Part shown: positions 54,950-56,791 of the stretch, one piece after another
How the letters are laid out: every line of letters begins with the position of its first letter
How positions within the stretch are numbered: the first letter of the stretch is position 1
Virus record (IMG/VR): IMGVR_UViG_3300027747_002198
Coordinates: 32,001 to 96,000 of that record
Reading direction: 5' to 3' (one strand)
Length of the DNA stretch: 64,000 bases
Origin: a virus
Notes under the pieces: model-generated
Seen by the model: the letters and a program-made list of their open reading frames with translations, nothing else
The model's database searches: none
Told to the model about the DNA's origin: nothing
Position numbers and translations under genes: made by a program

Positions 54950-54978
54950 TTGACAGAAAATAGTTTGTCTAGTATAAT
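54950..54978 (+). promoter_or_regulatory. Consensus sigma70 promoter for tRNA-Tyr onward
   Basis: TTGACA-17-TATAAT. Confidence 0.85.
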
Positions 54979-54990
54979 AGTAGTTCAATT

Positions 54991-55074
54991 GGGGTAGAAG
55001 AATCAACGGTGATTCAGCGGCCTGTAAAGCCGCCGCCTCTGGCATGCTTGGTTCGATCCCAAGATACCCCACCA
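54991..55074 (+). tRNA. trnY: tRNA-Tyr (GTA)
   Basis: GCGGC-CTGTAAA-GCCGC arm, long variable arm, A-CCA end. Confidence 0.88.
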
Positions 55075-55161
55075 GATTGTTGTATCAAGTGTAATGATTG
55101 GGTTGAGGACTTCTCGGCCGACAACAACGGAGGTGGCCGTCCCGTTTACATAACGAGCCCC
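55075..55161 (+). ncRNA. Candidate structured RNA (multi-stem, possible pseudoknots)
   Basis: GC-rich non-coding segment with several complementary blocks. Confidence 0.45.
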
Positions 55162-55181
55162 ATATTTTTAAGGAGAGTATT

Positions 55182-55400
55182 ATGAAAAAGAAAAATACTC
55201 CCCAACCTCGGAACTATCTTGTCAAATTGGCATTGTTTCGAAAAGCAGGGAGCCATCGTAAGAGTAACAAAGCAGTAAGGCGTAGTGAGAAGTCAAAAAG
55301 AAGTTATTATAGTGAAGTATACTGCCACTTAATACATATATGTGGAGTCCGGCCGGCGCACCTTCCACGGGTCAGCAATAGGTTCGAAACTATTGTGTAG
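55182..55400 (+). CDS. Small basic protein with arfA-like gene architecture
   Basis: AAGGAG SD; K/R-rich aa 1-40; 3' half inside a 24-bp RNA stem. Confidence 0.55.
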   Translation: MKKKNTPQPRNYLVKLALFRKAGSHRKSNKAVRRSEKSKRSYYSEVYCHLIHICGVRPAHLPRVSNRFETIV

Positions 55401-55420
55401 TGTGCTTCACTATAATAATT
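55302..55420 (+). other. 24-bp RNA stem (4 G-U pairs), putative RNase III substrate, with two internal hairpins
   Basis: 55302-55325 pairs with 55397-55420. Confidence 0.7.
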
Positions 55421-55433
55421 TTGGTCCGCCAAT

Positions 55434-55508
55434 GCCCTTTTAGCACAGCGGTAGTGCAGTGGTTTTGTAAACCAAAGGTCGGGAGTTCAAATCTCTCAGA
55501 GGGCACCA
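55434..55508 (+). tRNA. trnT: tRNA-Thr (TGT)
   Basis: GCCCTTT/AGAGGGC-A-CCA, loop TTTGTAA. Confidence 0.9.
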
Positions 55509-55527: not shown

Positions 55528-55556
55528 TTGACAATGTGTATAAGTAATGTTATAGT
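55528..55556 (+). promoter_or_regulatory. Sigma70-type promoter
   Basis: TTGACA-17-TATAGT with TGn. Confidence 0.75.
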
Positions 55557-55652: not shown

Positions 55653-55814
55653 ATGGCAACTAAAGATAAAACAAAAAAATCTTCAATGACAACCAAAACA
55701 GGTAAGCCTCGTTTAGGTCCTTTAAATGTTGAACAGTTAACTAAATTATTAGATGGTGCTCGTAAGAAACACAAACCAAAAATTTTGAAAGCAATTGCTC
55801 GAAAAGCAGCATGA
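55653..55814 (+). CDS. Unlisted 53-aa basic protein (MATKDKTKK...IARKAA)
   Basis: AGGGA SD, open frame. Confidence 0.55.
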   Translation: MATKDKTKKSSMTTKTGKPRLGPLNVEQLTKLLDGARKKHKPKILKAIARKAA

Positions 55815-56647: not shown

Positions 56648-56791
56648 ATGAGTGTGGTTAAATCAAATACTAAAAAAGTTCCTAATGTTCCTAATATTAA
56701 AAATATAGGACCAAAACCAAACATCAAACCTAAAGGTCCTGTTGCGGCCAAATCTTCAGCACCAATGCGTAAAAGTGGGAGAGGACGATGA
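56648..56791 (+). CDS. Unlisted 47-aa K/P-rich basic peptide ending RKSGRGR
   Basis: AAGGAG SD immediately after tRNA-fMet. Confidence 0.55.
   Translation: MSVVKSNTKKVPNVPNIKNIGPKPNIKPKGPVAAKSSAPMRKSGRGR

What the first reader, a model, noticed from the sequence alone, without database searches (positions are those of the whole stretch)
55182..55420. arfA-like gene architecture: basic mini-protein with a 24-bp RNase III-type stem over its 3' half
Seen: a 72-aa ORF with a strong SD. Residues 1-40 are very basic (PRNYLVKLALFRKAGSHRKSNKAVRR), and at codon 41 a 24-bp stem begins (55302-55325/55397-55420, four G-U pairs, consistent with RNA-level selection) that contains the stop codon. Established: E. 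coli arfA mRNA is cut by RNase III in a 3' hairpin, giving a non-stop mRNA whose product is tmRNA-tagged and degraded unless trans-translation is saturated; Bacillus brfA uses similar non-stop logic. Inference: a phage ribosome-rescue or ribosome-binding factor made only when host rescue is overloaded. Similarity to ArfA is only local (N...LFR, basic tail), so the family call is tentative.
Basis: partly seen in the sequence, partly recalled or inferred. Interest (0 to 1): 0.8.

Follow-up and report, generated by a model that had tools for sequence, protein, structure and literature searches.

The report
Phage micro-protein with processed-away stop codon
A widespread, unannotated phage gene for a 41-residue very basic peptide sits inside tRNA operons so that RNA processing (a tRNA or a long hairpin right after codon 41) should cut off its stop codon, the same design bacteria use to make emergency ribosome-rescue factors only when the main rescue system is overloaded.

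Summary
The ORF at 55182-55400, its strong Shine-Dalgarno site and a 26-bp stem (55300-55325/55397-55422, z -5.9) are real, and the stop lies in the 3' arm.

In about 150 close homologs and 401 clusters found by profile search, residues 1-41 are nearly invariant and under protein-level selection. The tail varies in sequence, length and frame.

In 73 non-redundant loci the conserved core is followed directly by one of two elements:
- A tRNA, almost always tRNA-Lys, in 33 loci. The first stop lies inside or beyond the tRNA.
- A perfect 15-26-bp hairpin in 32 loci. There are at least three unrelated stem sequences and many compensatory changes, and the stop never lies before or in the 5' arm.

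So a stop-less mini-mRNA released by tRNA-operon processing is the best reading (about 0.6).

Homology to ArfA is not supported by Pfam, hhalign or PDB sequence searches. Ribosome rescue is an inference from the gene design, the peptide's size and charge, and its tRNA context (about 0.3). A minority of members have ordinary stops.

The family is phage-specific and has no Pfam or PHROG family, and I found no description in the literature searched. First readers of this scan flagged the same family in another genome.

The parts
54950..54978 (+). Sigma-70-type promoter (TTGACA, 17 nt, TATAAT) that drives tRNA-Tyr, the micro-ORF, the hairpin and tRNA-Thr
   Evidence: 12 of 12 consensus match. No other good promoter and no terminator-like site lies between it and tRNA-Thr.
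54991..55074 (+). tRNA-Tyr (GTA), the upstream tRNA of the unit
   Evidence: ARAGORN and Rfam tRNA at 33.3 bits.
55075..55169 (+). Conserved GC-rich 5' leader of the micro-ORF, function unknown
   Evidence: At least 90% identical in 7 related loci (alignment A7). Too little variation to test a structure.
55170..55175 (+). Shine-Dalgarno sequence AAGGAG, 6 nt before the ATG
   Evidence: Read. An SD-like motif is present in 63 of 67 distinct upstream contexts of homologs.
55182..55304 (+). Conserved core of the gene: codons 1-41 of a very basic micro-protein
   Evidence: Residues 1-41 are nearly invariant in 40 homologs. Across 66 unique loci, codon-position differences are 0.23/0.13/0.52 and invariant Arg, Ser and Gly use up to 5 synonymous codons. 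The AF2 model has pLDDT 85, with helix 13-20, loop 21-28 and helix 29-45.
55305..55400 (+). Non-conserved run-on tail (codons 42-72) and stop TAG 55398-55400; probably not part of the functional product
   Evidence: Tails differ in sequence, length (0 to about 37 aa among close homologs; longer among the distant profile-search hits) and frame among close relatives. Frameshifted tails occur with the RNA stem kept (L028, P0016).
55300..55325 (+). 5' arm of the 26-bp stem; predicted site of endonucleolytic truncation (RNase III-type)
   Evidence: Stems of 15-26 bp begin 14-29 nt after the Arg33 codon in 32 non-redundant loci. 11 of 26 stem positions show compensatory double changes within this stem type.
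55326..55396 (+). 71-nt insert in the loop: inner hairpin 55342-55368 and a T-arm-like hairpin 55375-55396
   Evidence: Other phages carry unrelated inserts, or none, at the same place. No Rfam or ARAGORN call at normal thresholds.
55397..55422 (+). 3' arm of the stem; contains the stop codon
55434..55508 (+). tRNA-Thr (TGT), the downstream tRNA. It has no promoter of its own, so transcription must read through the hairpin.

Best explanation
Only the first 41 or so codons of the 72-codon ORF (55182-55304) are the gene proper. They encode a phage-specific, Lys/Arg-rich micro-protein with a short hydrophobic helix, an invariant FRKAG-x-H turn and a long basic helix.

Directly after codon 40-41, nearly every lineage places an RNA structure that host endonucleases cut. 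In half the family it is a tRNA gene, almost always tRNA-Lys, cut at its 5' end by RNase P. In this window's lineage it is a perfect 15-26-bp hairpin, a typical RNase III substrate. The first in-frame stop lies inside or beyond that structure.

Processing of the tRNA operon should therefore release a short message that has lost its stop codon. Ribosomes would run to its 3' end. While trans-translation has spare capacity the peptide would be tmRNA-tagged and degraded. When tmRNA is saturated, for example by phage- or defence-induced mRNA or tRNA cleavage, the peptide would accumulate. This is the arfA/brfA design.

The most likely job of the peptide is to act on stalled, mRNA-free ribosomes, either as an alternative rescue factor or as another mRNA-channel binder.

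Shown: the gene is real, the core/tail split, and the conserved abutting structure. Inferred: cleavage (about 0.6), tmRNA gating, and the rescue function (about 0.3). It is not a detectable homolog of ArfA.
For: The gene is real:
- A strong SD in the window and in 63 of 67 distinct homolog contexts.
- A third-position excess of differences, and synonymous codon switching at invariant residues.

Core and tail split:
- Residues 1-41 are nearly invariant and the tail is unalignable.
- 401 clusters at 50% identity all match through the N-terminal 40 or so residues, with total lengths of 38-176 aa.
- Many tails are translated tRNA genes.

Abutting structure in 73 non-redundant loci:
- In 33 loci tRNA-Lys starts 16-26 nt after the Arg33 codon. 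The stop lies inside the tRNA (29) or beyond it (4), never before it.
- In 32 loci a perfect hairpin starts 14-29 nt after Arg33. The stop lies in the loop (6), the 3' arm (17) or after the hairpin (9), never before it or in the 5' arm.
- Divergent members from other sources show the same (L003, L166, L167, L173-L175, L182, L183).

The hairpin is selected as RNA:
- At least three unrelated stem sequences occupy the same position, with 11 of 26 and 9 of 28 positions showing compensatory changes.
- The window stem has z -5.9.
- The window genome has no tRNA-Lys. Where the tRNA is absent, the site holds another structure, not a stop codon.

Other points:
- tRNA-Thr has no promoter of its own, so the hairpin is not an efficient terminator.
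- Stop completion by polyadenylation is excluded.
- From established knowledge: arfA (RNase III hairpin) and brfA (internal terminator) are made from non-stop mRNAs and repressed by tmRNA. ArfA, BrfA, ArfB and SmpB all use basic C-terminal tails in the empty mRNA channel (PMC8012679, PMC6881298). ArfT is only 40 aa (PMC6299226).
Against:
- A minority of members have ordinary stops and no tRNA or hairpin: Acidovorax phage ACP17, Variovorax phage V45v66, L170 and L184. Stop-less expression is therefore not obligatory for the peptide.
- A ribosome that follows RNA polymerase closely could reach the stop before cleavage.
- In loci where the hairpin abuts the next tRNA, RNase P alone would leave the stop in the message.
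- There is no sequence or profile similarity to ArfA, ArfB or any solved chain, and the KGKGS motif is absent.
- Many of the loci are related phages, so the counts overstate the number of independent events.
Confidence: 0.4

Rival explanations
1. An ordinary small basic protein whose C-terminal tail is simply unconstrained. The overlap with a tRNA or hairpin reflects tight packing of tRNA operons. The hairpin is a processing or 3'-stabilising signal, and the stop is used on unprocessed or hairpin-ended messages. The peptide would then be a constitutive tRNA-, rRNA- or ribosome-binding helper, for example an RNA chaperone for phage tRNAs or a protector against anticodon nucleases.
For: Some members have plain stops and no adjacent structure. 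The link to tRNA clusters is very strong, which fits a tRNA-related job. In hairpin-plus-tRNA loci, RNase P cleavage alone leaves the stop in place.
Against: In 33 of 33 tRNA-abutting loci no stop precedes the tRNA, although 3 nt would suffice. In GC-rich members the frame runs through a whole tRNA and beyond. When tRNA-Lys was lost, a long perfect hairpin took its place at the same codon, not a stop.
Confidence: 0.3
2. The truncation is real but is made by transcription termination at the hairpin, as in Bacillus brfA or Neisseria arfA, not by RNase III.
For: The stems are followed by 3-4 U. brfA uses an internal terminator (PMC6881298). In several loci a new promoter follows the hairpin directly (L010, L014, L018, L019).
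Against: A transcript ending after the hairpin would still contain stops that lie in the loop or 3' arm, which is the case in 23 of 32 loci. The stems are A/U-rich with short U runs, and the terminator scan does not call them. tRNA-Thr in the window depends on read-through.
Confidence: 0.1
3. A Lys-codon-rich leader peptide that couples translation to maturation of the downstream tRNA-Lys. Ribosomes that run into the tRNA would block its folding when Lys-tRNA is plentiful.
For: The specific partner is tRNA-Lys in 33 of 33 abutting loci. The ORF starts M-K-K/R-K and carries about 10 Lys codons.
Against: Non-Lys residues (Arg10, Asn11, Phe19, Gly23, His25, Arg33) are invariant through synonymous changes. 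The window lineage keeps the peptide unchanged without any tRNA-Lys in the genome. Other members abut tRNA-Met or stand alone.
Confidence: 0.08
4. A true but very divergent member of the ArfA family (PF03889).
For: Local resemblance at Asn...Leu-Phe-Arg followed by a basic Gly-Ser-aromatic/His stretch. The protein Atlas feature search puts DUF7230 at 0.89, and DUF7230 weakly resembles ArfA (E 0.11). hhalign aligns a PRNP-x-V motif between the phage family and DUF7230.
Against: No Pfam hit even at E 10 for 68 members. hhalign gives probabilities of 0.1% against ArfA and 2.6% against DUF7230. No PDB chain matches, ArfA entries included. The spacing between Asn and Phe-Arg differs by 3 residues, and KGKGS is absent.
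Confidence: 0.05

Closest known systems
E. coli ArfA (arfA/yhdL, PF03889)
   Same: A small basic protein of 72 codons of which only about 55 are used. The 3' coding hairpin holds the stop, and the tail is non-conserved. The message becomes stop-less, so the product is repressed by tmRNA. The hydrophobic patch followed by a basic tail has the same order along the chain.
   Different: No detectable sequence or profile similarity. No KGKGS motif. It is phage-encoded, the functional core is only 41 residues, and in half the family the truncating element is a tRNA gene (RNase P) instead of an RNase III hairpin.
Bacillus subtilis BrfA (PMC6881298)
   Same: A rescue factor made from a non-stop mRNA, with a helical N-terminal part and a basic C-terminus in the mRNA channel. 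It shows that this design evolved independently more than once.
   Different: Truncation is by an internal intrinsic terminator. No sequence similarity: the profile finds no PDB chain, and a BrfA-ribosome structure has been published. BrfA is chromosomal and restricted to Bacillus.
Francisella ArfT (PMC6299226)
   Same: About 40 residues, basic, with a Lys-Lys-Gly-Gly-Ser-type stretch that resembles the Arg-Lys-Ala-Gly-Ser stretch here.
   Different: ArfT is reported not to be controlled through a non-stop mRNA. No ArfT sequence was at hand, so the resemblance is at motif level only and untested.
Mitochondrial 'tRNA punctuation' of polycistronic transcripts (own knowledge)
   Same: Coding regions abut tRNA genes without a complete stop, and mRNAs are released by RNase P and RNase Z excision of the tRNAs.
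   Different: In mitochondria, polyadenylation completes U or UA to UAA. Here the last partial codons (GA, TT, GT, AT, CT, C) cannot be completed in that way, so the message stays stop-less.
Pfam DUF7230 (PF23876), small proteins of Betaproteobacteria
   Same: It shares a Pro-Arg-Asn-Pro-x-Val/Ala N-terminal motif. It is the nearest named cluster in the Atlas feature search (0.89). Its centre resembles the region of ArfA that contacts RF2.
   Different: hhalign probability is only 2.6%. It has an acidic tail, is chromosomal and is not linked to tRNAs.

Membership tests
ArfA (PF03889) | Match to the family profile above its gathering score | tested here: not met
   No PF03889 hit at E <= 10 for the ORF, its 45-aa core or three distant homologs. 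None at E <= 1 for 68 family members. None in the six-frame search of the whole phage genome. E. coli ArfA itself scores 89.5 bits.
ArfA (PF03889) | Profile-profile similarity to ArfA | tested here: not met
   hhalign of A3 against A4 aligns 3 columns (LFR) at probability 0.1%. BLASTP finds no alignment. Caveat: the ArfA alignment used was enterobacterial only.
ArfA (PF03889) | Conserved KGKGS stretch that lies in the mRNA channel | tested here: not met
   The corresponding stretch is Lys-Ala-Gly-[Ser/Ala/Val]-His, invariant at Gly23 and His25.
ArfA (PF03889) | Recruits RF2 to non-stop ribosomes and releases the peptide | not testable with these tools
   Needs biochemistry or genetics.
Non-stop-mRNA-encoded factors (arfA/brfA design) | Conserved N-terminal core followed by a non-conserved tail that is encoded but not needed | tested here: met
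   Frameshifted tails occur among close relatives.
Non-stop-mRNA-encoded factors (arfA/brfA design) | An RNA element that truncates the message lies between the core and the stop | tested here: met
   65 of 73 non-redundant loci have a tRNA (33) or a perfect hairpin of at least 15 bp (32) starting 14-29 nt after the Arg33 codon, with the stop never upstream of it. Covariation in the stems supports this.
Non-stop-mRNA-encoded factors (arfA/brfA design) | The message is truncated in vivo and the product is tmRNA-tagged | not testable with these tools
ArfB / ICT1 C-terminal tail | Sequence similarity to the basic tail, or a GGQ peptidyl-hydrolase domain | tested here: not met
   hhalign against E. 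coli ArfB aligns 8 columns at probability 0.3%. The phage genome has no PF00472.
DUF7230 (PF23876) | Match to the family profile | tested here: not met
   No hit in the phage genome at E <= 10 and none among 68 members. hhalign probability is 2.6% over 10 columns.
tRNA / tRNA-like RNA (for the hairpin element 55300-55422) | Cloverleaf recognised by ARAGORN or the Rfam tRNA model | tested here: not met
   No call at normal thresholds. The only call, at an 80% threshold, needs a 33-nt intron and draws poorly.

The most novel reading that the evidence does not exclude
Large phages carry their own alternative ribosome-rescue factor, a fourth, independently evolved Arf-type peptide. Its synthesis is gated by the host's trans-translation capacity through 'tRNA punctuation': RNase P excision of the adjoining tRNA-Lys, or RNase III cleavage of a substitute hairpin, removes the stop codon. 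The cassette of rescue peptide plus replacement tRNA-Lys would be a counter-measure to host mRNA decay and to defence nucleases that cut tRNA-Lys or mRNA and strand ribosomes.
Probability: 0.28. Interest if true: 0.9.

Novelty: new variant of a known kind. Interest (0 to 1): 0.8.

Why it matters
Programmed non-stop messages are known for only two bacterial rescue factors, ArfA and BrfA. This family would add several things:
- The design would exist in viruses.
- tRNA 5' processing by RNase P would be a new way to make such a message.
- It would be a large family: 401 clusters at 50% identity, only 7 hits (all in metagenome-assembled genomes) in 185,579 bacterial and archaeal species genomes, and no Pfam or PHROG entry.
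- It would give a function to some of the unexplained small ORFs in phage tRNA clusters.
- It would link phage tRNA arrays to ribosome quality control and possibly to counter-defence.

The idea can be tested directly with a 41-residue synthetic peptide and standard E. coli ssrA and arfA genetics. Even if the peptide is not a rescue factor, a coding gene whose stop lies inside a tRNA gene in dozens of lineages is a rule that gene annotators miss. Two of the three cultured phages that carry the gene leave it unannotated.

Tried and rejected
- Complex prediction of the peptide alignment with E. coli RF2 returned 'no answer' (score 0.00, controls not run). I do not count it for or against binding.
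- Foldseek of the AF2 model against the PDB found no match. A 46-residue helix-loop-helix is too small for this to be informative.
- Sequence profiles A2 and A3 against all PDB chains gave no hit at E <= 10.
- PHROGs and NCBIfam gave nothing.
- Reading the hairpin as a tRNA or tmRNA-like gene was rejected. ARAGORN calls it only at an 80% threshold, as an intron-bearing tRNA-Ile with an unconvincing drawing, and Rfam finds nothing at E <= 1.
- Mitochondria-style completion of the stop by poly(A) was rejected, because the partial codons before the tRNA are not U or UA.
- Reading the ORF as spurious over a structured RNA was rejected on codon-position statistics.
- The chain from the phage family through DUF7230 to ArfA was followed. 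Every link is below significance, so I keep it only as a lead.
- An attempt to centre a genome search on E. coli through a locus failed. A scan of genome contigs with the broad alignment A3 also failed and was repeated with the narrower A5.

Full report
**What is in the window.**
The finding lies in the tRNA cluster of a complete 161,799-bp phage genome. The genome has 35% G+C, direct terminal repeats and 7 tRNAs, with no tRNA-Lys and no tmRNA. Its neighbours include a family-B DNA polymerase, a Cpn10 co-chaperonin and an AdoMet decarboxylase.

A perfect sigma-70-type promoter at 54950-54978 is followed in order by:
- tRNA-Tyr (54991-55074);
- a 95-nt GC-rich leader;
- AAGGAG at 55170-55175;
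- the 72-codon ORF at 55182-55400;
- tRNA-Thr at 55434-55508.

The next promoter is at 55528. tRNA-Thr must therefore be transcribed through the ORF and its stem.

**The observation.**
Folding 55295-55428 gives one uninterrupted 26-bp helix, 55300-55325 with 55397-55422. Its energy is -47.2 kcal/mol against -27.8 +/- 3.3 for shuffles (z -5.9). The same helix appears when the whole inter-tRNA spacer is folded. The stop TAG at 55398-55400 sits in the 3' arm.

**The ORF is a real gene, but only its first 41 codons are.**
- Pfam, PHROGs and NCBIfam give nothing.
- The large protein collection holds 153 close homologs of 42-79 aa.
- A profile search finds 401 clusters at 50% identity, 38-176 aa long. 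Nearly all match through their N-terminal 40 or so residues.
- In an alignment of 40 homologs, residues 1-41 are almost invariant and the rest cannot be aligned at all.
- For codons 10-33 in 66 distinct loci, mean pairwise differences at codon positions 1, 2 and 3 are 0.23, 0.13 and 0.52.
- Synonymous codon differences outnumber non-synonymous ones by 21,295 to 9,202.
- Invariant Arg, Ser and Gly residues are written with up to five synonymous codons, including AGY/TCN serine switches.
- A Shine-Dalgarno motif precedes the ATG in 63 of 67 distinct contexts.

This is protein-level selection on a 41-residue peptide. An AlphaFold model from 68 diverse members has pLDDT 85, with a short helix at 13-20, a loop at 21-28 that carries the invariant Gly and His, and a basic helix from residue 29.

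**What follows the core is the real finding.**
I fetched 80 viral loci, 7 loci from bacterial metagenome-assembled genomes, 3 cultured phages and 6 contigs of divergent members. I then related the reading frame to tRNAs and to folds.

Among 73 non-redundant loci:
- **tRNA abuts the core (33 loci).** The tRNA starts 16-26 nt after the Arg33 codon, which is at codon 39-42. It is tRNA-Lys in all 33. The first in-frame stop lies inside the tRNA (29 loci, often the U8-A9-R10 triplet) or beyond it (4), never before it.
- **Hairpin abuts the core (32 loci, including the window).** A perfect helix of 15-26 bp starts 14-29 nt after Arg33. The stop lies in the loop (6), the 3' arm (17) or after the hairpin (9), never before it or in the 5' arm.
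- **Neither (8 loci).**

Two members that looked like plain 42-43-aa ORFs also have their stop inside a tRNA, called tRNA-Met and tRNA-Leu.

The hairpins come in at least three unrelated sequences at the same codon. Within one stem type, 11 of 26 (or 9 of 28) positions show compensatory double changes. The loop carries unrelated inserts of 50-92 nt, or none. Close relatives of the window have frameshifted tails with the stem intact (L028, P0016).

The conserved feature is therefore where the structure begins, not that the stem contains the stop.

**How it most likely works.**
RNase P cuts at the first nucleotide of a tRNA. A long perfect helix is the classical RNase III substrate. I state both from established knowledge; neither was tested here. 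Either cut would leave a message of about 20-110 nt of leader plus about 41 codons and no stop.
- Poly(A) completion of a stop, as in mitochondria, is excluded. The partial codons before the tRNA are GA, TT, GT, AT, CT or C.
- The window genome has no tRNA-Lys. Where the tRNA is missing, the site holds another cleavable structure, not a stop codon. I regard this as the strongest argument that loss of the stop is the selected property.

This is the design of arfA and brfA, whose products are tagged by tmRNA and degraded unless trans-translation is saturated (PMC8012679, PMC6881298). I put the stop-less message at about 0.6.

**What the peptide does.**
This part is inference. The points in favour of a peptide that acts on ribosomes with an empty mRNA channel are:
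- Its size. ArfT is 40 aa (PMC6299226).
- Its charge.
- The order of a hydrophobic patch followed by a basic tail.
- Its place among translation genes.
- A stop-less message makes most sense for a product that can release itself.

A rescue factor is my best guess, at about 0.3. The specific pairing with tRNA-Lys suggests a cassette against nucleases that strand ribosomes at Lys codons. That is speculation.

**Comparison with known families.**

*ArfA:*
- BLASTP finds no alignment.
- hhalign aligns only 'LFR' at probability 0.1%.
- PF03889 does not hit the ORF, 68 relatives or the phage genome.
- KGKGS is absent.
- No solved chain matches.

*ArfB tail:* probability 0.3%.

*DUF7230:* the protein Atlas points at score 0.89 to DUF7230.
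- Its profile has E. coli arfA as its only six-frame hit in the K-12 chromosome (E 0.96; hmmscan E 0.11).
- Its betaproteobacterial members have an ArfA-like centre.
- Both hhalign links are weak: phage family to DUF7230 at 2.6%, and ArfA to DUF7230 at 3.3%.

The peptide is therefore not a demonstrable member of any known family, although its gene is built like arfA.

**Limits.**
- A minority of members have ordinary stops and no adjoining structure: Acidovorax phage ACP17, Variovorax phage V45v66, L170 and L184.
- Many loci are related phages, so the counts are not independent events.
- No RNA-end data could be obtained.
- A ribosome coupled to transcription could reach the stop before cleavage.

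**Distribution and novelty.**
- Only 7 hits, all in metagenome-assembled genomes, were found in 185,579 species genomes.
- Only three cultured phages carry the gene, and two of them leave it unannotated.
- Five literature searches found no description of a phage-encoded Arf-type factor or of stop loss through tRNA processing.
- First readers of this scan flagged the same family in another genome, as a 15-bp hairpin abutting tRNA-Cys. My loci L011, L021 and L023 show exactly that.

Noticed in passing
window 55075-55169: The GC-rich leader between tRNA-Tyr and the Shine-Dalgarno site is at least 90% identical in seven related phages, about as conserved as the coding core. It could be a processed small RNA or a regulatory 5' UTR. 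There is too little variation to test a fold.
   Followed up: partly
window 55326-55396; L004, L006, L007, L013, L032 at the same position: The loop of the post-core hairpin holds at least four unrelated inserts of 50-92 nt in different phages, and none in others. The window's insert has a T-arm-like hairpin (55375-55396, loop GTTCGAAA). ARAGORN calls it tRNA-like only at an 80% threshold and unconvincingly.
   Followed up: partly
L179:1480-1710 (+), L180:1438-1635 (-); proteins P0385-P0489: Pfam DUF7230 (small proteins of Betaproteobacteria with acidic tails) has a centre that resembles the RF2-contacting part of ArfA. E. coli arfA is the only six-frame hit of this profile in the K-12 chromosome (E 0.96; hmmscan E 0.11). 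This may be an unrecognised relative of ArfA.
   Followed up: partly
L045-L083, e.g. L046:1624-1700: The tRNA-Lys(UUU) genes that abut the peptide gene have an unusual A/U-rich D-arm, with TAA or TAG at positions 8-10. That triplet doubles as the ORF's stop in one frame.
   Followed up: no
L010, L014, L018, L019 (about 60-95 nt after the core): In phages with the insert-free hairpin, a consensus TTGACA...TATAAT promoter starts immediately after the 3' arm. There the hairpin marks the end of one transcription or processing unit and the start of the next.
   Followed up: no
window 55653-55814 and 56648-56791: Two further small, very basic ORFs (53 and 47 aa) lie between tRNAs of the same cluster. 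They have no Pfam family, and I did not check whether they follow the same stop-in-structure rule.
   Followed up: no
L003 (Synechococcus phage BUCT-ZZ01, ON615601.1) 1498-1644 and 1624-1697: The deposited annotation has a 48-aa hypothetical CDS that overlaps tRNA-Lys by 21 nt. In ACP17 and V45v66 the homologous ORF is not annotated at all.
   Followed up: partly
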